From Chitinophagales bacterium (GTDB taxonomy: Bacteria; Bacteroidota; Bacteroidia; Chitinophagales; UBA2359): a stretch of DNA of 52,035 nt. Position numbers and translations under genes: made by a program. Shown piece after piece: positions 9,686 to 51,295 of the stretch. The notes under the pieces were generated by a model. The model was not told the origin of the DNA. It did no database searches and saw only the letters and a program-made list of their open reading frames with translations. The stretch spans positions 1-52,035 of the forward strand of contig JBMZCV010000010.1 in assembly GCA_049613665.1 (NCBI GenBank), given 5' to 3'. Each line of letters starts with the position of its first letter. Position 1 is the stretch's first letter.

Positions 9686-9705
9686 TTTTTTGTTTTTATA
9701 AATGA

Positions 9706-9885
9706 CAATAGTTCTGACATTTTTTATAACAATTTTCAGTTTCATAAAAAAACTTCTTTTGACAAGTGAAACATACTATTTTCAGTTCAAAAGGCCATTA
9801 AATTTGCAAATATTGGCCACCTTAACCTAAAAAAAATAGTACGTTTAAACTTTTGATAAAAAAATGTATAAATGTCCGAACTGTT
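9706..9885 (-). mobile_element. MITE-like repeat element, copy A, about 180 bp with terminal inverted repeats, inserted between cysO and moeZ.
   Basis: Reverse-complement match to the elements at 12479-12659 and 51959-52035. The termini are CAATAGTTCTGACATTTT at 9706 and AAATGTCCGAACTGTTG at 9869-9885. Confidence 0.75.
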
Positions 9886-9917
9886 GAAATAAGAAGTTAA
9901 AAATTATTTTTTTAATG

Positions 9918-10196
9918 CTAAAAAGAGCCGCCTGCAATAGCTGGCACAATGCTAACAACTGTTTCGTTAGAAATAGCAGTTTCACTACCATCAAGGCTAT
10001 TAATGTCTTCATCGCCAACATAAATGCGGATAAAAGAGCGAATTTGCTGGTTTTTGTCCAAAATATGAGGTGCTAATTTGGGATTTGCTGCTACCAAATC
10101 GGCAATAGCTGTTTGCACATTTTGGCTATCTACATCAAAAGTTGATTGATTGCCTGTAAATTTTCTTAACGGAGTTGGAATGATAATTTTTGCCAT
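9918..10196 (-). CDS. cysO: CysO-like MoaD/ThiS-family sulfur carrier protein with a C-terminal GG-SF extension.
   Basis: 92-aa ORF. IPTPLRKFTGNQ...IRIYVGDEDI...VVSIVPAIAGG resembles CysO/MoaD2. The ORF ends GGSF-stop (stop codon TAG at 9918-9920). Confidence 0.8.
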   Translation of the reverse strand: MAKIIIPTPLRKFTGNQSTFDVDSQNVQTAIADLVAANPKLAPHILDKNQQIRSFIRIYVGDEDINSLDGSETAISNETVVSIVPAIAGGSF

Positions 10197-10247
10197 GATT
10201 TGTATATTTTTTAAGTTAATTTTTAAATGTATTTTTGCTTTTCAAGC

Positions 10248-10664
10248 TTATAAAACGCTTTCTTCATCAAATATTTTCGTTTCTTCATTGAGCCGCCACG
10301 AGCGTAAAATATCGACTTTTCCATTCATAACTGAAATAATGATGTATGAAAAAAACGGCATTGCTTGCTTCAAATCATGCACCGACGGAATGGCGAGATG
10401 ATTTGGATGTGTGTGATAAATGCCCAACAATTCAATTTGATTTGATAATGCGTATTGCTCTGCTTTCATATAGTCGAAAGGCGAAATTTCAAAACGCCTT
10501 CTTTGGTCGCCTTTTTTGCTATTTTTCGCAGGCCGTGCCAACTCGACATATCGTTTTCCGCCTGTTATTTTTCCATACAAAAAACCGCAACATTCGTTCG
10601 GAAAACTCGCTTCGCTTTGCTCAAACATCACTTTCTTTGAATTTTCATTAATGCTTATTTCCAT
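10248..10664 (-). CDS. mec: JAMM/MPN+ metalloprotease (Mec+/QbsD-like) that processes the sulfur carrier protein.
   Basis: 138-aa ORF with the JAMM motif HTHPNHLAIPSVHD (H-x-H-x7-S-x2-D) and an upstream Glu. It lies between cysM and cysO. Confidence 0.85.
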   Translation of the reverse strand: MEISINENSKKVMFEQSEASFPNECCGFLYGKITGGKRYVELARPAKNSKKGDQRRRFEISPFDYMKAEQYALSNQIELLGIYHTHPNHLAIPSVHDLKQAMPFFSYIIISVMNGKVDILRSWRLNEETKIFDEESVL

Positions 10665-10725
10665 TTTAAAATATTTTTTTATCTACAAACGTTTCGCATC
10701 TATGATGCTTTAAAATGTTTCTTTT

Positions 10726-11667
10726 TTACAAAAAAATATGCTTTAATACTTCGCCATATTTCTCTGCATTGTCTGCGAAAATCGTGACAATAGTGCCTTC
10801 TTTTATCTGTTCTGCAACTTGAATCGCACCAACCAAATTTGCGGCTGCCGAAGGACTCAATAAAATACCTTCTGTTTGTGCAACATGTCGAATCATGTCG
10901 TAAGCTTCCATCGTATCGACTTCCAAATTTTGATGTGCAATGCTGCCGTCATAAATTCGAGGCACTTTCGCTGTTTCGAGATGTTTCCAACCTTCCATAC
11001 CGTGCAAAGCCGAATTTGGCTGAAACGAAATCAGTTGAATATTAGGGTTCAACAATTGCAATTTTCGGCTTGTGCCAACAAAAGTTCCTGTTGTGCCGAT
11101 TCCTGTTGCGAAATGCGTAATTTTTTGATTCGTTTGCTCAAAAATTTCTACTGCTGTTGTCTCGAAATGTGCTTTCCAATTGTTTTCGTTAGCATATTGG
11201 TCGGCATAAAAATACTTGTTTGGATAAGCTGCTGCCAACTCTTTAGCTTTTGCTTGCGAGCCATCTGTGCCATCGAAACGAGAAGTATAAATGATTTCTA
11301 CGCCAAGAGCTTTGAGAATTTGCTTGCGTTCTGCCGAAGCATTTTCTGGCAAACACAAACTTACTTTTATGCCCAAAGCCGCTCCGATAGACGCATAAGC
11401 AATGCCTGTATTGCCACTTGTAGCGTCTAAAAGCGTTATGTTTTCATGTATAAATCCTTGATTAACAGCATTTTTTATGATGTTGAAAGCTGGCCGAGCT
11501 TTTACACTTCCACCAAGTTGTTGCCATTCTAGCTTGGCAAAAATTTGTATATTCTTTTTTTGAAAAGCTCTTTTTATTGGAAACAAAGGCGTATTTCCGA
11601 TAAAAGATTGTATGTTTTTGAGTCTTTCAAGAAGTTTTTGGCTGACTTGTCGTTTTACTTGATTCAT
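10726..11667 (-). CDS. cysM: PLP-dependent cysteine synthase of the CysM type (uses a thiocarboxylated carrier and O-phosphoserine/O-acetylserine).
   Basis: 313-aa ORF with the fold-II PLP motifs GGSVKARPAFNII and TSGNTGIAYA. It is the first gene of the cysM-mec-cysO-moeZ block. Confidence 0.85.
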   Translation of the reverse strand: MNQVKRQVSQKLLERLKNIQSFIGNTPLFPIKRAFQKKNIQIFAKLEWQQLGGSVKARPAFNIIKNAVNQGFIHENITLLDATSGNTGIAYASIGAALGIKVSLCLPENASAERKQILKALGVEIIYTSRFDGTDGSQAKAKELAAAYPNKYFYADQYANENNWKAHFETTAVEIFEQTNQKITHFATGIGTTGTFVGTSRKLQLLNPNIQLISFQPNSALHGMEGWKHLETAKVPRIYDGSIAHQNLEVDTMEAYDMIRHVAQTEGILLSPSAAANLVGAIQVAEQIKEGTIVTIFADNAEKYGEVLKHIFL

Positions 11668-12022: not shown

Positions 12023-12478
12023 AATGAGAAAGATTGAAATATTCTATATTATTTAATACTAAGCGTTTATTTTTAAACGGACTGCTATAATACGGCGTTT
12101 TTTTTAGAAAAACAAACCTAGAACATCATAAAAGTTACAAAGTGTATCTTTAATCAGTTTTGTGACATAAAATTGACTTTTTGGATTATTTTGCTTTACC
12201 CAAATAAAATAATAGTGTGTTTGTATTTGAATGTTTGCTTTTTATTCGTATTTTGAAAAAAAACAAATATTTTGCTTTTTTACTGAAAATAGTAATAAAA
12301 TAGTGCTTTTTTCCTTTTTATATTTTGACAGTTTTTTCACATTCCTTATTTTACACCATGTTTTCTAAAAAAAGATGTAAATTTATTGTTCAAGACTAAT
12401 TTTTAATTTACGCTGTGTCAAAGGCTATTGAATAATAATGCTATTTGTGCTAACACCTTAAAAAACTTGTTAGTTTAC

Positions 12479-12659
12479 CAATAGTTCGGATATTTATACG
12501 TTTTTTATCAAAGACTTAAACATATTATTTTTTTTAGGCTAAGGTGGCCACTATTTGCAAACTTTATAGCCTTTTGAACTAAAAAATAGTAGGTTTCCCT
12601 TGCCAAAAGGTGTTTTTTTATTCGACTGAAAATTGTTATAAAAAATGTCCGAATCATTG
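12479..12659 (+). mobile_element. MITE-like repeat element, copy B, 181 bp with 17-18-bp terminal inverted repeats.
   Basis: Left terminus CAATAGTTCGGATATTT; right terminus AAAATGTCCGAATCATTG, which is the inverted form. A possible 5-bp target-site duplication, TTTAC, flanks it. An internal GGCTAAGGTGGCCA core is shared with copies A and C. Confidence 0.75.
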
Positions 12660-12748
12660 TTTACATAAACTGTAAAATAAATTTGTCCAAATACTTACTA
12701 AACATAAGTTTATTTTTTAATTTATATTATAAAGTTAAATCTACTTAA

Positions 12749-15072: not shown

Positions 15073-17073
15073 ATGACAGCTACACAAATATTTTATCAAA
15101 ACATTGCCCAAATTAGAGATTTGTTTCATAAATATGGTCGTTTTGATGATGCTAATGCCAAACTAGACGAATTGTCGAAATACTTATGTATTTATGTTTA
15201 TGAAAAACAAAGTCCAAAGTTAGCAAAATATAATATAGCAAGCTTACTTATTGAGTTTGAAAAAAACAATTCTTTTTCACTTGTTTCAAAAATTCAAGAA
15301 TTGTTTCATCAAGTTATACTTATTGATGAATTAAAAGATGCCAATGGACATTCCATATTTAAAAATTCGGCAAAGCTAAATATTGCAGCCGATGACCATC
15401 AGTTTGCTTATGCTTTATTAAAATTAGTTTGCAATGCTGTTGATGGCATTATTGAAGGCGAAAGAAACTTTGATGTTCTCAATGAATGTTTTGGACACTT
15501 TGTGAGAGCTAATTTTAGAAATCACATTGAAGATGCCCAATATATGACTCCCAATGAAGTAGTCGAATTTATTTGCGATATAGCACTTCACGATATAAAT
15601 GTCACAGATGTAGATTTAAAAGAATTTATAGTTTTAGACCCTTGTTGTGGTGTTGGCTCGTTTATTTCTACATTTTATCAAAAAAACTTAACTTCAAAAA
15701 AGGTTAAAAATCTAACAGTCATTGGCCAAGATAAAGTAGAAAGAATGGCCAGATTATCGAAAATAAACCTTTTTCTTGCCAACAATAAAAAGCATATTAT
15801 TTCAAACAACAATTCACTTTCAGGAAAGTCTGCACTTGATAATTTGCATGGAAAAGTTGATTTAATACTAACCAATCCTCCTTTTGGAGCAAAGTTTACG
15901 AGCGATGAATTAAAAGTTGATGCAAAAAAAAATTATCCTCATTTATTTGATATTATAGTAAGAAAAAACAAAACGTTTAACTCAGAAGTCTTATTCGTTG
16001 ATAAATGCCTTTCTTTGCTAAAACCAAATGGTAAATTGTTGGCAGTAGTGCCAGATAGCGTTATTTCCTCTAAGGGCCTTAATGAAATGTTAAGACGTAG
16101 ATTAGCGTATAAAAATAATATTCACATTAAAGCTATTATAGAATTGCCAAATGTCACTTTCGCACAAGCAGGCACACGCACCAAAACAAGTATTCTTTAT
16201 ATTGAGAAAGGAACAAGCAAAATTTCTAATACTTTTATTGCGAAAAGCGAAAGTATTGGTTTTGAAGTTAGTACCAAAAAAGGTGCAACCATAAAACATG
16301 AGCAAGGCGAAAATGATTTGTTAAGTATTTTTAAAGCTTATGTTTCGCAAATGGATTTTAAGAATGGTTTGGATATTCAAAAAGTCATTCAAAAACAGCC
16401 TTCTTGTGTTGCTATTCCTTCCGAATGGTTAAAAGAACAAACATGGACTCCCAACCATTATAAAGCATCAAAATTTACTTCTTTTGATAATATGAAAATT
16501 CCAGCAAAAGAAGTAAACTTTGTAAAGTTGTCAGATATTGCATTTTTCGATACCAAAAAGAGAAAGAAAGAAATTTTGGCCAATGATGCAAAATGTATTA
16601 GCGTACTTCATATAAACGATGAAAATTTAAACTATGAAGATTTTCTAAATTATGCTCCCAAATATATGGGCATTCCTTGTCAAAATGGCGATTTGCTCTT
16701 TTCAAAAATAAACCCTAGAATTGTTAGAATATTTGTTATACCTAATTTACCTTATGCTTTAAGCTGTTCTTCCGAATTTGAAGTACTCAATTCTTCAACC
16801 GAACTGAGCAATTATGCTCTAAAAATGTTGTTATTGTTGCCTGCTGTTCAAATTCAAATTAAAGCTTCTACTTCTGGCACATCGTCTTCTCACAATAGAA
16901 TAAAAACTAACGAATTATCTAATCTTATTATTCCAATGCCCAAAAAAGGTAGCAACTATTATACATCTTTTATTGAAAAAGCAAAAAAATACGAAGAAGA
17001 CAGTATCGCCTACAACAATTTAATTTTTACTATGTATAAAACTAAAATGGAAGTTTTCGACATGGTTGAATAA
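15073..17073 (+). CDS. Gamma-class N6-adenine DNA methyltransferase with its own target-recognition region (Type II-like restriction-modification methylase).
   Basis: 666-aa ORF. Motif X (AQYMTPNEVVEFI), motif I (VLDPCCGVGSFI) and motif IV (LTNPPFGAKF) are present, with a C-terminal region of about 300 aa. The local sequence is A+T-rich. Confidence 0.8.
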   Translation: MTATQIFYQNIAQIRDLFHKYGRFDDANAKLDELSKYLCIYVYEKQSPKLAKYNIASLLIEFEKNNSFSLVSKIQELFHQVILIDELKDANGHSIFKNSAKLNIAADDHQFAYALLKLVCNAVDGIIEGERNFDVLNECFGHFVRANFRNHIEDAQYMTPNEVVEFICDIALHDINVTDVDLKEFIVLDPCCGVGSFISTFYQKNLTSKKVKNLTVIGQDKVERMARLSKINLFLANNKKHIISNNNSLSGKSALDNLHGKVDLILTNPPFGAKFTSDELKVDAKKNYPHLFDIIVRKNKTFNSEVLFVDKCLSLLKPNGKLLAVVPDSVISSKGLNEMLRRRLAYKNNIHIKAIIELPNVTFAQAGTRTKTSILYIEKGTSKISNTFIAKSESIGFEVSTKKGATIKHEQGENDLLSIFKAYVSQMDFKNGLDIQKVIQKQPSCVAIPSEWLKEQTWTPNHYKASKFTSFDNMKIPAKEVNFVKLSDIAFFDTKKRKKEILANDAKCISVLHINDENLNYEDFLNYAPKYMGIPCQNGDLLFSKINPRIVRIFVIPNLPYALSCSSEFEVLNSSTELSNYALKMLLLLPAVQIQIKASTSGTSSSHNRIKTNELSNLIIPMPKKGSNYYTSFIEKAKKYEEDSIAYNNLIFTMYKTKMEVFDMVE

Positions 17074-17076
17074 AAT

Positions 17077-17718
17077 TTAAACTGCCTCCAAACACATTCC
17101 CCTTGTCAAGACACTTTTTTTGAAATATACAATGTCATACGACAATTTATTGCTATTCCAAATAGCTTCTAAAAAAAGCGGATAGTGCAAGTTTCCACAA
17201 CTATTTCTAAATTCATTAGAGTTTTTACCTCTTGGCGGATGCAACTGAAAGTTATTGCTAGTAATAATGCCTTCATCTCTTTTTTTATACCAAACAGCAC
17301 ACATTTTGCGAAAAAAAGGGTCTTTAGGTGGCCGAACAAGCCAAACTCTGCATCTTTCGCTTTTATGTTTAGGTTCATTATCCCACAAAACAAAAATAAG
17401 TTTTGGCATAGTATCTAAATAAGATAAATTACCAGAATATTCGCTTTTTGTACCTGCTTTAATAACGCCATTAAAGCGTGGTGTATCAATTGCTCCCCAT
17501 GTATTAGCACCTTTTACATCTGAGCCATCAAGTAAATCAGGGCCTTTTTTTCGCCCATATCCTTCTATTCCTGTTAGCAAACTAGCTAATATTTGAGACC
17601 AAGCTCTTGTATCAGTTGGCGTAGGCTGTTTTGTTGCTTTTGCATAAGGTTCGACAGCAAAAAATGATTGATGGTGTAAATTAAGAAATGTAAGCACTTC
17701 CCTCAAATCTGTATTCAT
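17077..17718 (-). CDS. Candidate cognate restriction endonuclease of unknown family.
   Basis: 213-aa ORF convergent with the methylase and separated from it by a 3-nt gap. It has no recognisable family; GPDLLDGSDVKG is a weak PD-(D/E)xK-like pattern. The call rests on position. Confidence 0.4.
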   Translation of the reverse strand: MNTDLREVLTFLNLHHQSFFAVEPYAKATKQPTPTDTRAWSQILASLLTGIEGYGRKKGPDLLDGSDVKGANTWGAIDTPRFNGVIKAGTKSEYSGNLSYLDTMPKLIFVLWDNEPKHKSERCRVWLVRPPKDPFFRKMCAVWYKKRDEGIITSNNFQLHPPRGKNSNEFRNSCGNLHYPLFLEAIWNSNKLSYDIVYFKKSVLTRGMCLEAV

Positions 17719-18750: not shown

Positions 18751-18987
18751 GAAATATGTATTCTATATAAATTTAAAATTTTCTATTTTTGTTTTACAAA
18801 TATCAACTTTTTTCCAGAGTTGGTTTTTGCGATGCGAAATTACAATAATTTAAGGTATTTTTAAAACTTGATAAAAATTTTGTCGTGAAATTGGTAGTTT
18901 TTTTAAATTTGAAAATAGCTACTTTTTATTTTTTCGGCAAAAACTATATAAAAAGCAGCTTGAGATACTTCCCAAACTGCTTTTTTT

Positions 18988-19080
18988 GTTAGCACTATTT
19001 AATAAACGGTCGATTCGTTGCTAACGCATTGATGTTCAGCGTGTTAGCTTCAACGAGATGTATATTTATTTTTGTCTGAC
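18988..19080 (+). repeat. Intergenic repeat family R, copy 1 (core AGCACTATTTAATAAACGGTCGATTCGTTGCTAACGCATTGAT...CTTCAACGAGATGT).
   Basis: About 95% identical to the reverse complement of 51168-51266. Related copies lie at 27495, 29085, 30430, 31874, 33441, 45473 and 48052. Confidence 0.75.
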
Positions 19081-19084
19081 TACT

Positions 19085-20314
19085 CTAATACATTTTTTCT
19101 GAATAAGCAGGTTTCAAAGGCAAGCCAAAGTTTTTTGATTTCGCAAAATTCAGCAAAATTTCAAGTTTTGTTTCCTCAACTTCAGGGCAAAAAAGATTGA
19201 GCTTTTTATACAACGCTTGCAAATTGTCGGTATTAAATTTTATTTTCTCCTGAATAAGATAGGGTGTCAAAAAAACACCAACTACATTATGATAAGTGCT
19301 TTCCAAATTATTTAAGTCTTTTGGCATTTTATCAACAAATGAGTAACCTGTAATGTTTAATACCTTAAAAATTTGCTGAACACACCATTCAGTAGGTGTT
19401 TCTTCTTCATTAACCAAGTGAAAATAATCGCCTTCTAGGTTTTGTATGCAGGTTTGATACAATATTTTGGCGGCAAAATCTACGGGAATAATATTTATGC
19501 CCGAATTTAAATCAGCTAAAACACGAAGTTTTACCTCTAGTTCTTCGTCATAAATCGATTCTGTATTATTTTTACAAACCATCGTTTTCCAATGAAGGAA
19601 AAAAGCAGCCCAGCCATAAAAAACATCAAACTTCGGTATTGCTCCTATTTCGTTTTCCAATAGTCTGCCGCTAATCGTAGTTGGTCTAAATATCCGACAG
19701 CGAAGTCCTGTACGGTCTTGATAGGCTTTTACTAATATTTCGGCTTGCAATTTACTTCTTTCATAAGGATTTCTAAATTTTTGGTCTAAATTTACATAAT
19801 CTGGCTGAATTTCGTTGTAAGTAGCTCCACAAACATAAGCCGTACTGACATAATCAAACTCTTTAACATCTAATTTGGAAACTAAATTTAAAAGATTTTC
19901 TGTACCTTTTACATTGATTTGATGCAGTTTTGCAATATTTTCGGCACTATTTTTAAAATTAGAAAAAGCAGCAAGGTGCATAAAATAATGAATTGTTTTT
20001 CCTTTCAATTTATTCAATTCATCATTACTGATTAATTCGTCATTGGTTAGTTCAATATTGACAAAATGAACTTTTGTATCAAAAAACACCTTTAATTCTG
20101 GTAATTTATCGGAACTCGCTGCCAAATAATCAAGCCCGTCATTAAAAAAGATGTCTTTCATACGCTCAGACAAAGTTTGTTGAGCCGATGAGCGTCCCAA
20201 AATAATTAATTCAATACTATCAAGCTGATGCAAGTTATCTTTAACAATTTCAAAAAATACATTTCTACCAAAAAATCCTGTGACTCCTGTTAATGCAAAT
20301 ACTTTATTCGCCAT
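19085..20314 (-). CDS. SDR-type NAD(P)-binding reductase (NAD_binding_4 / thioester or fatty acyl reductase-like).
   Basis: 409-aa ORF with N-terminal ALTGVTGFFGRNV matching the TGxTGFLG motif. Confidence 0.55.
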   Translation of the reverse strand: MANKVFALTGVTGFFGRNVFFEIVKDNLHQLDSIELIILGRSSAQQTLSERMKDIFFNDGLDYLAASSDKLPELKVFFDTKVHFVNIELTNDELISNDELNKLKGKTIHYFMHLAAFSNFKNSAENIAKLHQINVKGTENLLNLVSKLDVKEFDYVSTAYVCGATYNEIQPDYVNLDQKFRNPYERSKLQAEILVKAYQDRTGLRCRIFRPTTISGRLLENEIGAIPKFDVFYGWAAFFLHWKTMVCKNNTESIYDEELEVKLRVLADLNSGINIIPVDFAAKILYQTCIQNLEGDYFHLVNEEETPTEWCVQQIFKVLNITGYSFVDKMPKDLNNLESTYHNVVGVFLTPYLIQEKIKFNTDNLQALYKKLNLFCPEVEETKLEILLNFAKSKNFGLPLKPAYSEKMY

Positions 20315-20746
20315 TTTTAATTGTTTAATAGCTGTTTACTTGAAAAGCAAGTTTCTACTTATTCAAGCAAACAAGAGTTAGTAATAAAGGTTGTTTTATG
20401 TGTATTTATTGCACATATTTTGAGTAAATTTACATTCATTTTATATGAAATATGCTTTTTTTCTATTAAAAAAAAGAAACTTGATGAGTCATAGGCTAAC
20501 ATTTTAAATACTGCAAAAATATTTTTTTATCTTTTGTTTTCGTTTTAATACAATTCATTATAACATTAAAATAAAACGGAAATTATTAATCCGTAGCAAC
20601 AAAAAAAACATTTTTCCAAAAAAATTAAAACCCTTTTTTTCCCAAAAGTGTAATAAAAGCAATAGATTAGCGACATATTGAGTAGAAAGTATTAATTTTG
20701 TTATTTCTTTTCATTATTTCAAAAAAAGTAAACTAAATATAAACCT

Positions 20747-21928
20747 ATGGATTTCGATAGCTGGCAAAAAAAACAAGGCAATACGAATGTTAAAGCAAAA
20801 GAGCAAAAACCAAAAGCAAAGCAAAAGTCGTGGAAACGAGAGTTGTTAGAGTTGGCTATTATTGCATTTATTATCGTTCCGCTCATCAATATTTTCGTGT
20901 TGCAATCTTATGCTATTCCGACTTCTTCTATGGAAAATGAAATGTTGGTAGGCGACAAACTTTTTGTTAGCAAATTTCATTATGGTGCAAGAGTGCCGAT
21001 GACTCCTATTGCATTTCCGTATGTGCACAATACTTTGTTTGGCTCGCCATCTTATACCGAAGCTGTCAAATTGCCATATAAAAGACTGCCTGGCATTGCT
21101 CCTTTGAAGCGAAACAACATCGTGGTATTCAATTATCCAGGCGATGTGAAATATGATATTCCTGTCGATAAGCGAGAAAATTATGTGAAGCGTTGTGTGG
21201 CAGTAGCTGGCGATGAAATTCAAGTGATTGAAGGCGAAGTTTTTATAAATGGCGAAAAAGGCGAAAAGCTGAGAAATCTACAACATGCCTACCAAGTTAT
21301 GACGACAAATGAACCTTTCAATCCGAAAAAAATAAAAGAATTGGGCGTTTCAGAAGTCTATCGTTTTCCGAAACGTGGCAATGAACCTGCTATTCCAATT
21401 TCAAAACTCGGTGGTGTGAAAGCTTCTGCTTATACTTTTATGCTGACCGAAAAAGCAGCAGCAGCTTTAGAAAAAATGAGCAATGTGCAAGTTGTCAAAA
21501 GAATGATACAGCCTGTCGAAGCAGCAGATGTATATATTTTTCCTCGTGACGAGCGTTTTGCGTGGAATGTCGATAATTTTGGCCCTGTTTATTTGCCAAA
21601 AGCTGGCGAAAGTATCAAATTGGACTCTACCAACTTTGCGATTTACGAATATCATATTCGCAACTACGAAGGCGAAAAAGATATTACTTTCAAAAATAAT
21701 CAAGCTTATCTCAACGGAAAAGCCATTGAAAGTTATACTTTTAAACAAAATTACTACTTTATGATGGGCGACAACCGACACAATTCGGCCGACTCTCGCT
21801 ATTGGGGTTTTGTGCCAGAAGACCATATCGTGGGCAAACCAATTTTCGTGTGGCTTTCTACCGAAAAAGATGCCACAGGTTGGTCTGACTGGGTGCGTTG
21901 GGGAAAAAGTATGAGAACTGTTCAATAG
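20747..21928 (+). CDS. lepB: Signal peptidase I, paralog 1.
   Basis: Catalytic Ser motif SSMENEMLVGDKLFVSK and the Lys box [24 protein letters not shown]. Confidence 0.85.
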   Translation: MDFDSWQKKQGNTNVKAKEQKPKAKQKSWKRELLELAIIAFIIVPLINIFVLQSYAIPTSSMENEMLVGDKLFVSKFHYGARVPMTPIAFPYVHNTLFGSPSYTEAVKLPYKRLPGIAPLKRNNIVVFNYPGDVKYDIPVDKRENYVKRCVAVAGDEIQVIEGEVFINGEKGEKLRNLQHAYQVMTTNEPFNPKKIKELGVSEVYRFPKRGNEPAIPISKLGGVKASAYTFMLTEKAAAALEKMSNVQVVKRMIQPVEAADVYIFPRDERFAWNVDNFGPVYLPKAGESIKLDSTNFAIYEYHIRNYEGEKDITFKNNQAYLNGKAIESYTFKQNYYFMMGDNRHNSADSRYWGFVPEDHIVGKPIFVWLSTEKDATGWSDWVRWGKSMRTVQ

Positions 21929-22406: not shown

Positions 22407-23639
22407 ATGACAACTCCTTCTGATTCGAGTGTTGAACCTAACGAAAAACCGATTAAAAAGAAGCCAAAACCGCTTTGGCGTGAATGGTTTGATGCCTTGT
22501 TTTTCGCTATTATTGCGGCCACCATCATCCGCACTTTTTTCATTGAAGCCTACACTATTCCGACTTCTTCGATGGAAAAAACTATGCTTGTAGGCGATTA
22601 TCTTTTTGTTAGCAAGCTAAATTATGGTGCAAGAGTGCCAATGACACCGCTTTCGTTTCCTTTCGCACATCATACGATGCCTTTTACGGGTGGCAAATCA
22701 TATAGCGAAGCTTTGAAATTGCCTTATTGGAGACTGCCTGGTTTTCAAGATATAAAACGCAACGATATTATTGTTTTCAATTATCCGATGGAAAGTATGC
22801 GGCCTGTCGATAAGCGAGAAAACTATATCAAACGTTGTGTTGGGTTGCCAAGTGATACGCTACAAATCGTGAATCGGCAGTTGCTCATCAACAACGATAA
22901 ATCGGAAGATATGGGCAATATGCAGTTTAATTATTTTGTGCGAACAAACGGCAATCACATCAATAAAAACGATTTATTTAAGCTAAATATCACAGAAGGT
23001 GGTTTGAACGAAGCCACCGATAGTTTCAATTTGTATAAATATGCTTTGACGCTCGAAAGTCTGGAAAAGATGTCGAAATTTAAGAATGTCGTCAAAATAG
23101 ATACCGTTATGCGTGACAAAGGTATTTATAGCGAAGAGGTGTTTCCGCTTTATCCAAAATTGATGCAAATGGCTCATGCCGAACATCATAATCAAGATAC
23201 GATAACTAAAGTTTCTAAGCAAATTATGAAAAGTTTTGCGTGGAATATCGACAACTTTGGCCCTTTGGTAGTGCCAGCGAAAGGCGACACGGTAGAACTA
23301 AACTTAGAAAATATTTATTTGTATGAACGCATTATTAGGGTGCATGAACACAATGATTTGCAGTTTAACAATGACCAAATACGCATCAATGGCAAGGTGG
23401 CGACTTCTTATGTTTTCAAGATGAATTATTATTTTATGATGGGCGACAACCGACACAATTCGGCGGACTCTCGCTATTGGGGTTTTGTGCCAGAAGACCA
23501 TATCGTGGGCAAAGGCTGGCTAGTGTGGCTCTCGCTAAAACCGATAAATCTCAATCGCAAGGCTGGCTTTTTTAGCAAATATGTGTTTAAAGGGAAAGAA
23601 GTGCGTTGGGATAGGTTTTTTAAGTGGATACATGAGTAA
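22407..23639 (+). CDS. lepB: Signal peptidase I, paralog 2.
   Basis: [17 protein letters not shown] and [24 protein letters not shown]. The second motif is almost nucleotide-identical to paralog 1 over 79 nt. Confidence 0.85.
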
Positions 23640-27494: not shown

Positions 27495-27565
27495 CTTGAA
27501 AAATATATTTGTGAGGAAACCGATTAAATCGTACCTTGATATTTAAATGATGCTTGGCATTTGGA
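27495..27565 (-). repeat. Diverged copy of intergenic repeat family R.
   Basis: The reverse complement reads CCAAATGCCAAGCATCATTTAAATA...TACGATTTAATCGG. Confidence 0.35.
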
Positions 27566-28890: not shown

Positions 28891-29084
28891 TAGTTATCTA
28901 TAAAAAATGGTGATTTGCACAAAATTAAGCTTTTTCAACAATACTTTTGCCGTTTTACTTCTTTTTTGTTTTTATCATCATACGATATGATTATTTTCAG
29001 CTATTTTTTTGACTAAAAATGTACTGTTTTCTAAAACAAAATAAATGTATGTAGCAGTCGGACAGACTTATTCTACAAATTGTG

Positions 29085-29185
29085 AAAGCTAACACATCAA
29101 ATAGATATTATTCACAAAAAAACATAAGCAAAAATATCAGTGCGTTAGTAACCAAACAACCTTTATTAAATAGTGTTGGCATTTA
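29085..29185 (-). repeat. Diverged copy of intergenic repeat family R.
   Basis: The reverse complement reads AAATGCCAACACTATTTAATAAAGGTTGTTTGGTTACTAACGCACTGAT. Confidence 0.5.
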
Positions 29186-30382: not shown

Positions 30383-30429
30383 GATTTTGGCAGATTAAGT
30401 AGTTGTTCAGAAGCTTTTGGGCATTTCAT

Positions 30430-30612
30430 AACAAGGCAATACCTTGATTTTTCAATGCGTGGGCCACTAAACAAATGCTTTATTAAATAGTACTTAACTT
30501 TGAGTAGCACTAACGAATATAGCTAAAAAATAAGTAAGTGCCAAACACTATTTCATAAAGGTCAGTTGATTGCTAACGCATTGATATTGAGTATCTTAGT
30601 TTTCACAACTTG
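30430..30612 (+). repeat. Composite copy of repeat family R: an R core plus a GCAATACCTTGATTTTTCAATGCG sub-motif.
   Basis: AGTGCCAAACACTATTTCATAAAGGTCAGTTGATTGCTAACGCATTGAT at 30537-30585. The upstream sub-motif is also present in the copy at 31874-31951. Confidence 0.6.
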
Positions 30613-30634
30613 TAGTATAAGTCTATTCTACTGC

Positions 30635-31834
30635 TTATGTTTTCAAAACACTTTCGTACATTTCCAATAAATCTTTTCCTATTTTTTGTTTGCTATATGT
30701 CTGTCTGATATTTTTTGCTAAAGCTACTGCATCATATTTCTTATAGTTTTCTATCATATAACAGATTGCATCTTCTAATTCTTGAGGCTTTTTTGGCGAA
30801 ATAAGCAAGCCATTTTCTTTCGTAATAAAAATTTCTGGGCCACCACAACGAGTCGCAATAACGGGTTTGCCACAAGCTAAGGCTTCTGCCGTTACGACCG
30901 AAAAAGTTTCATAGTTGCTATTGACGATTAGAAAGTTGATGGTAGGTAAAAAAGCAAGCACAAAATCATTGGTTTTTCGACCATGAAAAAAGATAGATTT
31001 ATTTAAAACTCCAAGTTGCTTGGCCAGATATTTTAGGCTTTCTTCGTCTTCTCCTCCACCGATTATATGATATTCGAAAGGCTCGAAACGCTGGCTTACG
31101 GCTATTTTTGCGACTACTCGTATAATATCGCTAATGTTTTTGACTTTATCGAACAAATCGCCTATGCTTAGAAAGCGAATTGTAGCATTTTTTGAAGAAG
31201 CTTTATCGTTTTTTTCTTGAAATTCGACAAACTCTACCACATTGGGAATCAAGTAGTTAGGCCGTTTTAATCCATTTTTTTCGATAGCATTTTGCAAAGC
31301 CACAGATACTGCCGTAAAAGCACTGCTCTGAGCTACAAAAAAACGAGTTAAGGCTTTCATCAAAGCATTTTTTTGAGCATATTTGCCATTGATATAGCCA
31401 GACCAATGTTCTGTTATGCAGTATGAAATATTATATCGTTTTTTGATATAGTAAGCAACTGCGGCAGGCCGATTTAAAACATGAGTATGCACTAAGTCTG
31501 GCTTTTCGTGTTCTTCAAAAATTTGCTGTAAAGCTTGCCTGCTTGTTTTCCAATATCGGTTGATGTTGATGAGCTTTTGCAAAGGAGAAAAAGCTGCTAT
31601 ATGTTGTTTGTAGTAATAAGTGTAAGCTATAAATTTTTCGTTTTTTGTTTTTACTAAAATTGGTGTTTTGGTCGCTAAATTTGGGTCTCCTACCACATAA
31701 AGCACAACAATATCTGCATACAAAGCAGCAGCTTCGGCGTGTTTCTGCACGAAAATTCCAAGTTGTTCGTCAAATTTGTTAGGATACCATTTGCTTAGAA
31801 ATAAAACTTTTATTTTTTTCTTGTTATTCATCAA
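30635..31834 (-). CDS. Family GT4 glycosyltransferase.
   Basis: C-terminal ETFSVVTAEALACGKPVIATRCGGPEIF matches the GT4 E-x7-E region. Confidence 0.8.
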   Translation of the reverse strand: MMNNKKKIKVLFLSKWYPNKFDEQLGIFVQKHAEAAALYADIVVLYVVGDPNLATKTPILVKTKNEKFIAYTYYYKQHIAAFSPLQKLININRYWKTSRQALQQIFEEHEKPDLVHTHVLNRPAAVAYYIKKRYNISYCITEHWSGYINGKYAQKNALMKALTRFFVAQSSAFTAVSVALQNAIEKNGLKRPNYLIPNVVEFVEFQEKNDKASSKNATIRFLSIGDLFDKVKNISDIIRVVAKIAVSQRFEPFEYHIIGGGEDEESLKYLAKQLGVLNKSIFFHGRKTNDFVLAFLPTINFLIVNSNYETFSVVTAEALACGKPVIATRCGGPEIFITKENGLLISPKKPQELEDAICYMIENYKKYDAVALAKNIRQTYSKQKIGKDLLEMYESVLKT

Positions 31835-31873
31835 AAATAGGATTAGTCAAACAAGAGAAATAAATTGCTCATT

Positions 31874-31951
31874 TGTGGAAGCTAATGCCTTGATTTTCCA
31901 ATACGTTAGCAACACATCAAACACGCTATACTAAATTAGTGCTTGGCACTT
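31874..31951 (-). repeat. Copy of repeat family R.
   Basis: The reverse complement reads AGTGCCAAGCACTAATTTAGTATAGC...GTTGCTAACGTATTGGAAAATCAAGGCATTAGC. Confidence 0.6.
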
Positions 31952-33116
31952 AGCTACTGACGACTTCAATATCTGGCATCACTCGCAGGTTGTCTGGAAT
32001 GTCATATTGCCATTTATCCAACGTAAATTTCCATTCTTTTTGAATAGCTTTTATTTCTCGCTCCGAAATATTGTGTTTATTTTTTTTATATTTTCTTTGC
32101 TTGTTAGCATATTTCTTAAAATACTTTTTAGCTCTATCAAAATCGGATAATCCCAATTTAGTATAAATTTTTTCTAATTCTACAAGTGGATCTTGTTCAA
32201 ATTCTTCAAAACGAATTTCGGCCAAATTTCCTTCAGGAATAAGGTGTCTATCTTCATAATATTGAGCAAGAATATTTTGATATGTCCACAAAATTATTTC
32301 TTCTAATTTTCGCTCGCCTACTTGTTCTAATTGCAAGCTAGGCATCATTTCTTTCAAAAATTTCTTATTGGAAAGAAAAACATTGTAAGGATTTCGATAA
32401 ATAAAAACAAATTTTGCTTTTGGAAAAATCTCTAATAGCATTTTTATGCGGCCTGTGTTTGGCGGATTTTTCGATACAAAACGAGAGCCTCCCGTATTGA
32501 GCATGGCAGTTTTAACGATTCGTTCATAGCTTTTTTTGAAATCGCCAATGACTTCATCGCTTACATTTTCAAAGTTTATATATTTTTTATAAAACTCTTT
32601 TGTTTTGCTCGGAAAATACCAAAAGTTATAAAAGCTATAAGAATGCGTGTTGGCTATTGCAAATTCCTCCTCTTGCGGATAATCGGCATTCATTTCTACA
32701 TTGTCGCCTTGCCTTTTGCTAGGGAGAACTACACGCATAAAGTTTTTGAACAATATTTTGCCCATTTTGCCCAACACTACTTCTGGAAAAGTGCCTTGAT
32801 AAGTCGTTACATAAGCTATTGAAGGGTCTTCGCATATCATATTGTGCAAATATGTAGTGCCGCTTCGCCAATGTCCGATGATAAAAACAGGATTTTCGGG
32901 CAATGGCAAGCTATCGAGCATTTTGTTGTAACGAGAGCGTTCATATATACGAAAGGGTTCGCCCAACACGCTTAATAATGTCGCAGCCCATTTTTTGCTT
33001 CTATAATTTTTATCAATATGTCCCAACTTTAAAGTGCGACGCAAAGCAGAAATTGAGCCAGCCGAAATTGCAGGTATTGCAATTTTAGTTTTATAATCTT
33101 TAATTGATTCTAACAT
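31950..33116 (-). CDS. Sulfotransferase-family protein.
   Basis: 388-aa ORF with the 5'-PSB loop IIGHWRSGTTYLHNMI. Confidence 0.7.
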   Translation of the reverse strand: MLESIKDYKTKIAIPAISAGSISALRRTLKLGHIDKNYRSKKWAATLLSVLGEPFRIYERSRYNKMLDSLPLPENPVFIIGHWRSGTTYLHNMICEDPSIAYVTTYQGTFPEVVLGKMGKILFKNFMRVVLPSKRQGDNVEMNADYPQEEEFAIANTHSYSFYNFWYFPSKTKEFYKKYINFENVSDEVIGDFKKSYERIVKTAMLNTGGSRFVSKNPPNTGRIKMLLEIFPKAKFVFIYRNPYNVFLSNKKFLKEMMPSLQLEQVGERKLEEIILWTYQNILAQYYEDRHLIPEGNLAEIRFEEFEQDPLVELEKIYTKLGLSDFDRAKKYFKKYANKQRKYKKNKHNISEREIKAIQKEWKFTLDKWQYDIPDNLRVMPDIEVVSS

Positions 33117-33440
33117 TAGAATAATTTTGAATAAGAATATTTTTTACTAAAGCTAACATTCTTATTTTGTGTAAAATATATATCATTTCAAACTCTCAAA
33201 CACCTTTTTCTATACTAATATGTCTTTCACTTAACAACATTGTAAGCCTTGTCGTTTGATTTCTTTTCACAAAACTAACGAATATTCAGCCAAAGATAAA
33301 CTAGATAGCTTATATTTAACACTATGACGCATAAAATTACCAATCTATTACAAGAATTAGGCATAAACAAAAAGATATTATAGTTTTAAACTATTGTTTT
33401 TTTATTTTTGCTATACAATTTGTATTTTAGCATCTTTTTA

Positions 33441-33535
33441 AGTGCCAAGCACTAATTAATAAATGGCCAATTTGTGCTAACATTTTGATATTTAGCATGT
33501 TATTTTCAGTCATTTGTCGTTTATTGTTGTCTGAA
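33441..33535 (+). repeat. Copy of repeat family R.
   Basis: AGTGCCAAGCACTAATTAATAAATGGCCAATTTGTGCTAACATTTTGAT. Confidence 0.6.
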
Positions 33536-33575
33536 AACTTGTAATTTTTCCCTTATTCCAAAAAAAATAATAGGT

Positions 33576-39490: not shown

Positions 39491-40279
39491 AAAGTGTTTT
39501 TTATATTAAGTAAATACATAGACAAAAATAAGCTACTCAGCAGTTTCTCCTTTGACATTTTGTCAATATATGTGTAAAAAATGTCGGCAGAAAATCGCTT
39601 TTTCTGAGCCAAAAGATAAAACCTAAATAGTCTTTGACAAAAAATAAGCTTTTTAGCCAAACAAAAAAAATAAAATATGCTTTTTCATAAAAGAAAATAG
39701 TTTTTATTTTTTTCTATCACAGTTTTTTAGTATATGCAAGCCTTCAACAACTTTTTTTTATATCTTTGTTTTGTTGGAGAAAGCTTATCGCATTTATGTA
39801 GCCGTTTTAGGTAAGGCATATCTTACTTCTAAAGTTATTAAAAGTAATCTGGAGTTTGTGAGGCAAACAGTAAGAAAGGATAAATAAAAATATGTAACAA
39901 TTGATTGTCATAGATGCAATCTTTTATTTCTTTGTATTTGCGAGCCTGTGAAGCAATCTAATCCCGTGCCGAAACTGACGAAATCTCGTTTAACTTCATG
40001 CCTTCCACTTTTTCACGCTGTTCAAAAGATGTTCGCTATGACGCAAAATCAACAGATTTTATTGTAGCATTTATTAATTTTATGTTAATTATTTGAGCTA
40101 CTCAAGCAACGAAACAAAAACCTTTACACGTCATTTTAGTGCAATTTGATGACTAAAAGACCTTATTTTTAGTTTACTTTTTGTTTCAAATTATTTTTTC
40201 GCATTTTGAAAAAAATAACAATCAATTGTCATTGCAGCGAAAAAGCAAGTCCACATACCATTTATTTTTTTAGCAAAAC

Positions 40280-43277: not shown

Positions 43278-43803
43278 AATTGTAGATTTTTCAATATATA
43301 GCTCTTGTTTATATTTTTTGCTAAAAAAACAAAAACCTACAACAAGCTTGCACTATACATTATCGTTATATGATATAAAAAACATGGTTCTCTGACAATT
43401 TGGGCGTTCACTTTTATAACAAAAAATAGATAAGGTTTCTTTTTTGTCAGAAAATCAAAAAGATTGGCCTTTTAAAAATTAGTCTTTTGGTGCAAAAAAA
43501 GAAGTTATTTTTTGAACGTTACTTAGCACAGAAACCTGTTTGAGCATTTCGTGAAATTGTCTTTTGTTTTTTAGAAAAAATAATTTAACAAATAAAAACA
43601 TCAATTAACAACAAGTTTAAGCGAGTTTTTTTGTGACAAAAGGCGTTAAGATTTTTAAACAGTCTTGATTTTTTTTAGTTCGTTTTTTTTATCAAATAAA
43701 AAAATGAACAACTAGCCAAAACGGACTACAAGAATGACATAATTTCTTTCTTATGTTATCTAGCTACCGCCCAAAATTGTCAAAGAACCAAAGACATTGT
43801 AAG

Positions 43804-45206: not shown

Positions 45207-45472
45207 TTTTTTTGTAATTTTAAAGGTTCAAAAATCTTTTTTGTTTACTATAAAAAAAGTTGAGTCTAAAGTTAATTAGCTTTTTCAACAAAACAAAGTC
45301 ACTTTGGATATTCACGCTAAAAAAATACTATAAAGTAGCAACTATTTTTACACTTTTTTCGGCTATCAAAATAGCGTTTTTCAACATACTTTAGGAACTT
45401 TTCTTTTATTTTAATAGTTGTATAATTTGTAAATAAATGAGCAAAGCATTTTTTATCCAAAAAATATCATTG

Positions 45473-45575
45473 AGTGCCAAACACTATTTAATAAACAGCC
45501 GATTCGTTGCTAACACATTGATAATCAAAGTATTAGCTTCAACAAGCTCTCATGTTATTTTTATTGTAGGTACTT
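45473..45575 (+). repeat. Copy of repeat family R.
   Basis: AGTGCCAAACACTATTTAATAAACAGCCGATTCGTTGCTAACACATTGAT. The ORF 45437-45652 reads across it and is rejected. Confidence 0.65.
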
Positions 45576-45648
45576 ACTTGTTCAAATATTTCTTTTCTTC
45601 TAAAAAAATACGCAACATAGCGTTTACATTCATCAAAACTCCAATCGC

Positions 45649-47958: not shown

Positions 47959-48051
47959 GAAATATAAAATTTGTCTCTTGGCAATTTTCCAAAACTGATT
48001 TATGCACCTTGTCTGCATCTTGTAAAATAGATGTGGCAAGGTGTTTTTTTA

Positions 48052-48140
48052 GTGCCAAGCACTACTTAATAAACGGCTGATTTGCTGCTAACGCATTAAC
48101 ATATTATTGTATTACCTTCAACGAGATGTTATACTTTGTT
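48052..48140 (+). repeat. Copy of repeat family R.
   Basis: AGTGCCAAGCACTACTTAATAAACGGCTGATTTGCTGCTAACGCATTAAC...CTTCAACGAGATGT. Confidence 0.65.
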
Positions 48141-48223
48141 CTTTAATTACTTATTCTTCAAACTTTAATGTATCTTTTTCAGTCTAAAATCTTTATTCTT
48201 TTTCACTTCAAAAAAATAAAATC

Positions 48224-49480: not shown

Positions 49481-49669
49481 ACAGCTAAAGTAAAACTAAA
49501 GATGGAAAGCACTTTAAAAGTGCCTTCCATCTCCTAAAGTAAATCAATGCTATTATACTCCTTTTTCTGTGCTTCCTTTTTTCGTTTCAACTCTTGTTCT
49601 ATTTCATTTATCTCAGAAGAGATAATCCATTTTTGTAGTTTTTCTACTATCATTTCCTAGATAAATTTT

Positions 49670-50164: not shown

Positions 50165-50180
50165 ATTGAAAAATATTTAT

Positions 50181-51104: not shown

Positions 51105-51167
51105 TGATTTTATTTTTTTGGGAAGTGCAAATCTTTTCGTAAAGCTTATATAAATCCTTATTTAAGT

Positions 51168-51266
51168 AGTCAGACAAAAATAAATATACATCTCGTTGGA
51201 GCTAACACGCTGAACATCAATGTGTTAGCAACGAATCGACCGTTTATTAAATAGTGCTTGGCACTT
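51168..51266 (-). repeat. Copy of repeat family R, nearly identical to the copy at 18988-19080.
   Basis: The reverse complement reads AGTGCCAAGCACTATTTAATAAACGGTCGATTCGTTGCTAACACATTGATGTTCAGCGTGTTAGCTCCAACGAGATGTATATTTATTTTTGTCTGAC. Confidence 0.8.
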
Positions 51267-51295
51267 ATGAAGGATTTATATAAGTTATTTTTATT

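What the first reader, a model, noticed from the sequence alone, without database searches (positions are those of the whole stretch)
18988..19080. Abundant roughly 90-bp intergenic repeat family with the core AGTGCCAAGCACTATTTAATAAACGG...TTGCTAACGCATTGAT...CTTCAACGAGATGT.
At least nine copies of varying divergence lie at 18988, 27495, 29085, 30430, 31874, 33441, 45473, 48052 and 51168, on both orientations. The copies at 18988 and 51168 are about 95% identical. Each contains a short palindrome (AGTGC-CAA-GCACT) and a GCTAAC...GTTAGC hairpin. Most sit in short gene-to-gene gaps, often at 3' ends. A REP/BIME-like element family has not been characterised in this kind of genome. It could mark mRNA stability or termination elements or recombination hot spots.
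Basis: seen in the sequence. Interest (0 to 1): 0.55.

Follow-up and report, generated by a model that had tools for sequence, protein, structure and literature searches.

The report
New 105-bp foldback MITE family
The repeat is real: it is a 105-bp miniature, non-coding mobile element scattered between the genes of an uncultured marine Bacteroidota bacterium, a new family of an already known kind, and also a landing site for an IS110/IS1111-type insertion sequence.

Summary
The repeat is confirmed. An HMM finds 9 solid copies in the 52-kb window, plus 3 decayed remnants. A 22-nt pattern from the element finds 97 marine-metagenome contigs but no GTDB species genome, IMG/VR virus, plasmid or phage.

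Seventy-three copies with unrelated flanks define a sharp 105-bp unit, TAAGTGCC...GGTACTTA. Its ends are imperfect inverted repeats, and the whole unit is an imperfect foldback (88% of modelled pairs kept). It has no coding capacity, never lies inside an ORF and has no preferred orientation relative to genes. It sits in A/T-rich gaps and, when it touches a gene, always touches the 3' end (15 gene ends vs 0 starts within 15 nt). Related contigs lack it at sites the window has filled, and carry it at sites the window has empty.

The anatomy is that of a MITE, not a REP/BIME, a riboswitch-like RNA or an IS fragment. The mobilising transposase was not found. The only transposase linked to it is an IS110/IS1111-family element, present as full copies and as transposase-less mini copies of about 470 bp. 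These repeatedly abut the element's 28-nt arms, much as IS1111 does in Coxiella QMITE2. Whether that IS targets the element or shares its ends is unresolved.

Verdict: new member of a known kind, moderate interest.

The parts
18991..19087 (+). Element copy, 96% identical to the copy at 51163-51267. It lacks the first 9 nt of the left arm. Its right end overlaps the stop codon of the SDR gene at 19085-20314(-).
   Evidence: (I1)
29053..29185 (-). Element copy with about 27-30 extra nt in the loop of the central hairpin. Its first TAA is the stop codon of the gene at 29183-30382(-).
30407..30519 (-). Diverged copy, back to back with the next copy.
30535..30640 (+). Element copy. Its right end touches the stop codon of the glycosyltransferase gene at 30635-31834(-).
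31848..31952 (-). Diverged copy between the sulfotransferase and glycosyltransferase genes.
33439..33541 (+). Element copy in the divergent gap upstream of recQ.
45471..45576 (+). Element copy upstream of the 769-aa repeat-protein gene.
48049..48153 (+). Element copy upstream of the GWxTD gene. Homology to the related contig L188 stops 4 nt from its right end, and L188 has no copy there.
51163..51267 (-). Best copy in the window (91% identical to the family consensus). It sits in the loop of a 15-bp-stem hairpin between the STAS and RNase Z genes. The orthologous gap in L188 holds an intact terminator hairpin and no element.
12412..12476 (+). Degenerate, truncated copy (left arm plus hairpin) that abuts a copy of the second MITE-like family.
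27527..27565 (-).
39507..39537 (-). Solo right arm (TAAGTAAATACATAGACAAAAATAAGCTACT on the + strand), directly joined to an IS1111-like inverted-repeat end.
39538..40270 (.). Decayed, transposase-less IS1111-like derivative. It starts with CAGCAGTTTCTCCTTTGAC. The boundaries are approximate.
   Evidence: the end was assigned by eye

Best explanation
[quoted passage not shown] Each is a 105-bp non-coding unit, TAAGTGCCAAGCACTATTTAATAAACGG...TTATTTTTGTCTAGGTACTTA. Its two 28-nt arms are imperfect inverted copies of each other, and its middle is a 12-bp-stem hairpin, so the whole unit can fold back on itself.

Inferred mechanism. A transposase supplied in trans recognises the terminal arms and moves or copies the unit into A/T-rich intergenic DNA, possibly at a TA dinucleotide and sometimes into the loops of terminator hairpins. 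Purifying selection then leaves copies only where they do little harm, mostly just downstream of stop codons. Once in place, the copies act as dispersed homologous and palindromic sequence and as landing sites for an IS110/IS1111-family insertion sequence.

Shown here: the unit, its sharp ends, its foldback, its copy number, unrelated flanks, presence/absence differences between relatives, the lack of strand bias, and the link to gene 3' ends.

Inferred only: the transposition chemistry, the TA target and the identity of the transposase.
For: - Sharp boundaries. Seventy-three copies with unrelated flanks all start at TAAGTGCC and end at GGTACTTA.
- Terminal inverted repeat. TAAGTGCCAAG matches the reverse complement of the right end (TAAGTACCTAG) at 9 of 11 positions, read directly from the consensus.
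- Whole-element foldback. As RNA the forward strand folds at -39.4 kcal/mol (z -6.7). As DNA it folds at -16.7 kcal/mol (z -3.8).
- Structure kept across copies. 88% of modelled pairs are kept, against 28-44% when partners are slid. Fourteen pairs carry double changes, against 7.2 in shuffles.
- Never in a gene. 0 of 73 copies lie inside an ORF, and orientation relative to genes is 23:23.
- Target. There is no motif beyond A/T richness, and no duplication beyond the possible TA.
- Mobility. Contig L188 (83-90% nt identity) lacks the element at two sites that the window has filled. L041 and L062 carry copies at sites the window has empty.
- Not part of something larger. There is no transposase gene in the window, and no hit in Rfam, plasmids, phages, IMG/VR or GTDB species genomes.
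Against: - No autonomous element with matching ends and a DDE transposase was found. The ISKra4-family IS next to one copy has unrelated inverted repeats.
- The target-site duplication could not be proven, because TA is part of the conserved ends and every empty site comes from a relative too diverged for base-level mapping.
- The metagenome copies were selected with a left-arm pattern, which inflates apparent conservation.
- Some of the double changes in the foldback reflect two subfamilies, so they may be one event counted many times.
Confidence: 0.8

Rival explanations
1. The element is a miniature derivative of the IS110/IS1111-family element, or cargo sharing that element's ends. On this reading the 28-nt arms are the true outer ends of a modular transposon. 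The slot between them holds the 49-nt hairpin (the 105-bp element), a mini-IS of about 470 bp, or the 1.75-kb IS. The DEDD, RNA-guided transposase would then move all three.
For: - The only transposase linked to the arms is IS110-family (Pfam; NCBIfam NF033542).
- In contigs selected by the transposase rather than by the repeat, 8 of 9 readable junctions have an outward-pointing 28-nt arm directly against the IS inverted repeat. Both left-arm-type and right-arm-type arms occur, always at exactly 28 nt from the arm terminus.
- L003 and L179 show [arm>][IS][<arm].
- No occupant-free [arm][arm] dimer exists in 97 loci.
- There is a precedent for transposase-less modules moved by an IS110 enzyme: ISPpu9/ssr9 (PMC12288879).
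Against: - IS110/IS1111 elements insert at specific targets, but the 73 element flanks share no motif.
- In IS1111-type elements the subterminal repeats lie 7 and 3 bp from the ends, not 28 (PMC11187229).
- Other junctions show the IS inside elements instead: L071 (elem 1-86|IS|78-105), L066 and L187 (arm|IS|elem 20-105).
- The L070 'left arm' turned out to be the end of an ISKra4 IS.
- Similarity between the element's middle and the IS inverted repeat is weak (12 of 21, with the offset chosen by eye).
- No guide-like matches were found in the IS non-coding regions.
Confidence: 0.12
2. The element is a structured RNA element (cis-regulatory leader, small RNA, terminator or mRNA stabiliser), kept because of what its transcript does.
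For: - The forward strand folds much better as RNA than the reverse strand (-39.4 vs -23.4 kcal/mol), because several G-U pairs all fall on one strand.
- Pairing is kept in 88% of cells, with some compensatory changes.
- Copies cluster just after stop codons.
- The right arm carries a conserved TATTTTTG, which fits the Bacteroidota -7 box TAnnTTTG (read from the sequence; the motif is from my own knowledge).
Against: - There is no strand bias relative to flanking genes (23:23 downstream, 20:32 upstream).
- No Rfam family matches at gathering threshold in the window, or at E<=1 in four loci.
- No U-tract follows the hairpin, and the terminator scan does not flag the central hairpin or foldback of any copy; its one hit inside a copy is the 5-bp left-end hairpin of 31848-31952.
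- The flanking genes are functionally unrelated.
- RNAalifold itself calls only the 4-bp 5' hairpin.
- Insertion polymorphism between relatives fits a mobile element better.
Confidence: 0.05
3. The element is a REP/BIME-type element multiplied by a RAYT (Y1 HUH) transposase.
For: It is intergenic, palindromic and high-copy, it lies near gene 3' ends, and it is a target of an IS110-family IS, as REPs are (PMC1525189).
Against: - The unit is 105 bp with terminal inverted repeats, not a 20-40-nt palindrome.
- Neither end carries a GTAG or CGTC head (consensus; criteria from PMC3733652).
- There are no BIME-like alternating clusters.
- No RAYT gene was seen in the window or the loci, although the genome is far from complete.
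Confidence: 0.02
4. The copies are fragments of a larger known IS, prophage or plasmid.
For: The first 28 nt also occur next to IS110-family elements.
Against: - Stand-alone 105-bp units with both ends intact far outnumber the IS-linked pieces (73 vs about 20 junctions).
- There is no transposase or phage gene in the window.
- There are no plasmid, phage or IMG/VR matches.
Confidence: 0.01

Closest known systems
QMITE2 of Coxiella burnetii (PMC5896051)
   Same: Both are small foldback MITEs found in intergenic DNA and 3' UTRs, and some copies overlap stop codons. Both are hot spots for insertion of an IS1111-type element. In both, most IS-associated copies are incomplete or rearranged.
   Different: There is no sequence similarity and the phylum differs. 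QMITE2 is 150-190 bp, has 7-11-bp direct repeats and carries a GTAG REP that is the IS1111 target. This element is 105 bp, has no detectable duplication beyond a possible TA and has no GTAG. Here the IS abuts the arms at exactly 28 nt from either terminus.
Correia elements (CREE/NEMIS) of Neisseria, and RUP of Streptococcus pneumoniae (from my own knowledge)
   Same: All are units of about 100-150 bp with terminal inverted repeats and ends beginning TA. All are high-copy and intergenic, can fold into a long hairpin when transcribed, and may carry outward promoter-like boxes.
   Different: The sequences and hosts are unrelated. A TA duplication, IHF binding, RNase III processing and promoter activity are shown for Correia elements and untested here. 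No IS630-type parent element was found.
MITEs of Bacteroidota: MITECca01 of Cardinium (PMC9769881) and the P. gingivalis MITE (PMC4596501)
   Same: Same phylum, and the same kind of non-autonomous element found in repeat-rich genomes.
   Different: Those elements are 240 bp or more, and MITECca01 has an identified parent IS (IS982-family ISCca4). This family is shorter, has no identified parent and is not similar in sequence (no literature hit for its core).
REP/BIME elements as IS110-family targets (IS621, ISPpu9 and ISPpu10; PMC1525189, PMC11208160, PMC12288879)
   Same: Both are dispersed palindromic intergenic repeats occupied again and again by IS110-family elements. Transposase-less modules also exist in both systems.
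   Different: REPs are 20-40-nt palindromes with a GTAG/CGTC head and are thought to be spread by RAYTs. This unit is three times longer and has MITE anatomy.

Membership tests
MITE (miniature inverted-repeat transposable element) | Small size (well under 500 bp) and no coding capacity | tested here: met
   The consensus is 105 bp. No ORF fits inside it, and 0 of 73 copies lie inside an ORF.
MITE (miniature inverted-repeat transposable element) | Terminal inverted repeats | tested here: met
   TAAGTGCCAAG matches the reverse complement of the right end at 9 of 11 positions. The arms pair in 94.8% of cells in helix 1, and the whole unit folds back.
MITE (miniature inverted-repeat transposable element) | Many copies with sharp common ends and unrelated flanks | tested here: met
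   There are 73 distinct-flank copies in the window plus marine contigs, and 9 copies in 52 kb of the window.
MITE (miniature inverted-repeat transposable element) | Target-site duplication | tested here: inconclusive
   No duplication is seen beyond the conserved terminal T...A/TA. One empty site in the window has TA at the junction, but TA cannot be told apart from the element's own ends.
MITE (miniature inverted-repeat transposable element) | Presence/absence polymorphism at orthologous sites | tested here: met
   L188 lacks copies at the STAS/RNase Z gap and upstream of the GWxTD gene. L041 and L062 carry copies where the window has none. The relatives are 82-90% identical, so mapping is not base-exact.
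MITE (miniature inverted-repeat transposable element) | An autonomous parent IS with matching terminal repeats | tested here: not met
   No DDE-type IS with these ends appears in the window or in 107 marine loci. The ISKra4 IS in L070 has unrelated repeats. Only an IS110/IS1111-type element is linked to the arms. The genome is incomplete, so absence is not proven.
REP/BIME | A 20-40-nt imperfect palindrome with a conserved GTAG or CGTC head (PMC3733652) | tested here: not met
   The unit is 105 bp, and neither end has a GTAG or CGTC head (consensus).
REP/BIME | An associated RAYT gene | not testable with these tools
   Only 52 kb plus short contigs of this lineage are available, and none of the proteins scanned is a Y1 transposase.
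Any Rfam RNA family | A covariance-model match at the gathering score | tested here: not met
   There are 0 matches in the window. The only match at E<=1 in L070, L066, L071 and L003 is a chance-level fstAT hit outside the element.
IS1111 group of the IS110 family (for the associated IS, not the repeat) | A DEDD transposase (PF01548 + PF02371), subterminal inverted repeats, and a long non-coding region downstream of tnp (PMC11187229) | tested here: met
   Pfam matches both domains and NCBIfam NF033542 scores 190 bits against a cutoff of 140. The ends are the 18-nt inverted repeats CAGCTATTTCCGCTTTGA / TCAAAGCGGAAATAGCTG. A 361-nt non-coding region lies 3' of tnp, although a 386-nt one also lies 5' of it.
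Correia-type (IS630/Tc1-like, TA-targeting) MITE | Duplication of a TA target, and an IS630-family parent | tested here: inconclusive
   Ends that read TA|AGTGCC...GGTACT|TA are compatible with this, but no parent was found and no base-exact empty site is available.

The most novel reading that the evidence does not exclude
The 28-nt arms may form a fixed docking frame whose interior is exchangeable. The same slot, exactly 28 nt from either terminus, holds the 49-nt hairpin, a non-coding mini-IS of about 470 bp, or a 1.75-kb IS1111-like element. On this reading the 105-bp repeat would be the smallest member of a modular family moved or re-loaded by an RNA-guided DEDD (IS110/IS1111) recombinase. 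That would make it a MITE family tied to bridge/seek-RNA transposition, yet able to land in many different A/T-rich sites.
Probability: 0.12. Interest if true: 0.7.

Novelty: new member of a known kind. Interest (0 to 1): 0.35.

Why it matters
- Assembly. The family explains why this marine Bacteroidota lineage assembles so badly. Most contigs are 1-4 kb, and many end inside a copy.
- Strain typing and genome dynamics. The family gives a marker for strain typing, and for tracing rearrangements and IS1111-type insertions in an uncultured group whose nearest sequenced relatives share only about 60% protein identity.
- Effects on genes. Copies sit within a few bases of stop codons, and some supply the stop codon itself. 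They can therefore alter 3' ends and terminator hairpins of ordinary housekeeping genes.
- The IS link. If the tie to the IS110/IS1111 element proves mechanistic, this would be a natural case of RNA-guided recombinases using or spreading a high-copy miniature element. That bears on how such recombinases choose and multiply their targets.

Tried and rejected
- Promoter or 5'-leader idea. In the window 7 of 9 copies point toward a downstream gene start. Across 73 copies the orientation is 23:23, so I dropped it.
- Target-site duplication and flanking inverted repeats. Neither differs clearly from shuffled flank pairs. Only three copies sit inside clear hairpins.
- Exact empty sites. L041 and L062 against the window, and L188 against the window, are too diverged in intergenic DNA for base-level junctions.
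- Close genomes. The GTDB species set has no pattern match. RecQ relatives are at most 60% identical over the full length and lack the element. Window proteins are not on record. The best RNase Z relative is 92% identical.
- ISKra4-family IS as parent. Its 24-bp inverted repeats are no more similar to the arms than shuffled sequence.
- Bridge/seek-RNA guide search. I looked for k-mers shared between the IS non-coding regions and the arm or IS ends. Only chance-level A/T-rich 6-7-mers turned up.
- Uninterrupted [arm][arm] palindrome that could be the IS target. None was found.
- RNAalifold on the 74-sequence alignment. It returned only the 4-bp 5' hairpin, so I scored the full foldback with an explicit structure instead.
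- One fuzzy-regex script timed out. I replaced it with a Hamming scan.

Full report
**Observation**

The stretch at 18988-19080 belongs to a real repeat family. A repeat scan shows the copy at 18991-19090 to be 96% complementary to 51159-51258, and related to copies near 30557, 33461, 45494 and 48058. An HMM built from seven copies finds nine significant copies in the window, with E-values from 6e-6 down to 2e-33. A 22-nt core pattern occurs six times against 0.03 expected by chance.

The site at 27495 is only a decayed remnant. The '30430' region holds two copies back to back. Further remnants lie at 12412-12476 and 39507-39537.

**Setting**

The window is chromosomal DNA of a low-G+C (about 34%) member of the Bacteroidota. 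It carries ordinary genes, including sucD, recQ, RNase Z, two signal peptidases, lptC, an Omp85 protein, a T9SS-tailed protease and a restriction-modification pair. It has no transposase and no phage genes. The genes that flank copies are functionally unrelated. There are no tRNA genes and no Rfam matches.

**Distribution outside the window**

The core pattern is absent from one genome per GTDB species, from IMG/VR, and from plasmid and phage collections. It occurs on 97 marine-metagenome contigs, nearly all 1-4 kb long and often ending inside a copy.

The nearest genomes are distant. RecQ is at most 60% identical over its full length, in Bacteroidetes, Sphingobacteriales and Chitinophagales MAGs, and none of those loci holds the element. 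RNase Z has one relative at 92%, and the next-best matches are at most 60% identical. The host is therefore an uncultured marine lineage with essentially no sequenced close relatives.

**Anatomy**

Aligning copies together with their flanks shows sharp common ends. Similarity starts at TAAGTGCC and stops at GGTACTTA, and the flanks are unrelated. The consensus is 105 bp:

TAAGTGCCAAGCACTATTTAATAAACGGTCGATTCGTTGCTAACGCATTGAAAATCAGTGTGTTAGCTTCAACGAGAAGACTACTTATTTTTGTCTAGGTACTTA.

- The ends are imperfect inverted repeats, matching at 9 of the outer 11 nt.
- The whole left half is an imperfect inverted copy of the right half.
- The forward strand folds into one rod-like hairpin. As RNA it reaches -39.4 kcal/mol (z -6.7), against -23.4 for the reverse strand. 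As DNA it reaches -16.7 kcal/mol (z -3.8).
- On 74 copies, 88% of the modelled pairs are standard pairs, against 28-44% when partners are slid.
- Fourteen pairs carry changes on both sides, against 7.2 in shuffles, with 0 of 500 shuffles as high. Part of this reflects two subfamilies, so it is modest support only.
- RNAalifold alone calls only the 4-bp 5' hairpin.

One caveat applies. The metagenome copies were fetched with an exact left-arm pattern, so conservation of positions 4-25 is partly by construction.

**Placement**

- None of the 73 distinct copies lies inside an ORF.
- Orientation relative to the downstream gene is 23 same to 23 opposite. Relative to the upstream gene it is 20 to 32.
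- The flanks share no motif other than A/T richness, and there is no duplication beyond the terminal T...A/TA.
- A few copies sit in the loop of a pre-existing hairpin. One is the window copy at 51163-51267, inside a 15-bp stem.
- Copies that touch a gene always touch its 3' end. Within 15 nt there are 15 gene ends and 0 gene starts (p = 6e-5). The median distance is 44 nt to gene ends and 113 nt to gene starts.
- In several cases the element's terminal TAA is the stop codon.
- The terminator scan does not flag the central hairpin or the element foldback of any copy. Its one hit inside a copy is the 5-bp left-end hairpin AGTGCCAAGCACT of 31848-31952.

**Mobility**

Contig L188 comes from a relative with 83-90% nucleotide identity to window 48158-51946. 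It has no copy in 3.2 kb. Its STAS/RNase Z gap holds an intact terminator hairpin where the window has a copy inside a hairpin loop. Its homology upstream of the GWxTD gene stops 4 nt from the end of window copy 48049-48153.

The reverse also occurs. L041 and L062 carry copies at sites that are empty in the window, and one of those empty sites reads AAC-TA-AAAAC at the junction.

Copies inside the window are 54-90% identical to one another, so they are old. Many metagenome copies are within 5-10% of the consensus.

**Interpretation**

The following features together are the anatomy of a MITE:
- a small non-coding unit with inverted-repeat ends and a whole-element foldback;
- many copies with unrelated flanks, strictly intergenic and with random orientation;
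- insertion differences between relatives.

REP/BIME membership fails on size and on the missing GTAG/CGTC head. A strand-specific RNA function is not supported by the orientation data. I cannot exclude secondary effects: hairpins at 3' ends, or an outward TATTTTTG that fits the Bacteroidota -7 box.

The transposase is unknown. TA-bounded ends would fit a Tc1/IS630-like enzyme, but no such parent element was seen.

**The IS link**

Partial copies led to an IS110/IS1111-family element. Its features are:
- a full copy at L070 2077-3828;
- a transposase matching PF01548 + PF02371 and NF033542;
- 18-nt inverted repeats, CAGCTATTTCCGCTTTGA / TCAAAGCGGAAATAGCTG;
- long non-coding regions on both sides of the gene.

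Transposase-less versions of about 470 bp also exist (L066, L071, L003).

Ten IS ends at different genomic sites are directly preceded by positions 1-28 of the element. Contigs fetched through the transposase itself are free of the pattern bias. In these, 8 of 9 readable junctions have an outward-pointing 28-nt arm against the IS. The arm is of the left or the right type, and always exactly 28 nt long.

Other junctions put the IS inside elements: L071 (1-86|IS|78-105), and L066 and L187 (arm|IS|20-105). In L070 the apparent left arm is really the end of an ISKra4-family IS with perfect 24-bp repeats. No occupant-free [arm][arm] palindrome exists in the data.

The window itself holds a solo right arm fused to a decayed mini-IS at 39507 to about 40270.

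I cannot decide whether the IS targets the element's arms or shares them. Targeting has precedents in IS1111 in Coxiella QMITE2 (PMC5896051) and in IS621 and ISPpu9/10 in REPs (PMC1525189, PMC12288879). I favour targeting, because the element's own flanks show none of the target specificity expected of IS110-type insertion.

**Comparison and verdict**

The closest known system is QMITE2 with IS1111. Correia and RUP elements are the closest in anatomy. MITEs are already known in Bacteroidota (PMC9769881, PMC4596501). This family has no sequence match anywhere I could search, including the literature.

It is a new member of a known kind. It is useful for understanding this lineage's genome dynamics, and mildly interesting for its tie to an RNA-guided transposase family.

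Noticed in passing
window 9705-9906 (-), 12477-12680 (+), 51939-52035 (+, cut by the window end); also L065 1206-1290 and L055 3317-3404: A second, unrelated MITE-like family of about 200 bp. It has inverted ends of about 17 bp (CAATAGTTCGGACATTT...AAATGTCCGAACTATTG) and an internal palindrome. One copy abuts a truncated copy of the first family at 12476/12477, and another abuts a full copy in L065.
   Followed up: partly
L070 2077-3828; L066 90-566; L071 1062-1538; L003 1732-2070; L178-L187: An IS110/IS1111-family IS (332-aa transposase, on record in 39 blocks of the collection; 24 contigs read) and transposase-less derivatives of about 470 bp made of its two non-coding ends. They resemble the modular ssr9 units of ISPpu9.
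   Followed up: partly
window 43446-43742: A stretch about 76% identical to the 3' non-coding region of the IS110/IS1111-like element. It has no transposase gene and no recognisable ends nearby, so it is probably a decayed mini-IS.
   Followed up: partly
L070 450-2065: An ISKra4-family IS (494-aa transposase, NF033572 at 228 bits) with perfect 24-bp terminal inverted repeats. The IS110-family element sits 11 nt from its right end.
   Followed up: yes
window 18906-20611 vs L062 1399-1445: A 1.7-kb segment holding the SDR/NAD_binding_4 gene and the element copy at 18991-19087 is missing from the related contig L062. In L062 the sucD and signal-peptidase regions are only 46 nt apart.
   Followed up: no
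window 46900-47460, inside ORF 45649-47958: In-frame 33-nt (11-codon) tandem repeats, with higher-order units of 66 and 99 nt, in a 769-aa protein that has no Pfam or NCBIfam match. G+C and purine skew are high in this segment.
   Followed up: no
window 20747-21928 and 22407-23639: Two tandem paralogous signal peptidase I genes (Peptidase_S26), with patches of 73-91% nucleotide identity.
   Followed up: no
window 15073-17718: A restriction-modification pair: an N6 DNA methylase/Eco57I-type gene converging on a MamI-family restriction endonuclease gene.
   Followed up: no
window 49670-50164 vs L188 1695-1727: A 164-aa ORF with no family match lies between the RNase Z and GWxTD genes in the window. 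It is absent from the related contig L188, where those genes are 32 nt apart.
   Followed up: no
window 8510-11667: A ThiS-like, JAB-domain, ThiF/rhodanese and PLP-enzyme gene cluster, which looks like a sulfur-carrier (CysO-type) cysteine pathway. A copy of the second repeat family lies between the ThiF and ThiS genes.
   Followed up: no
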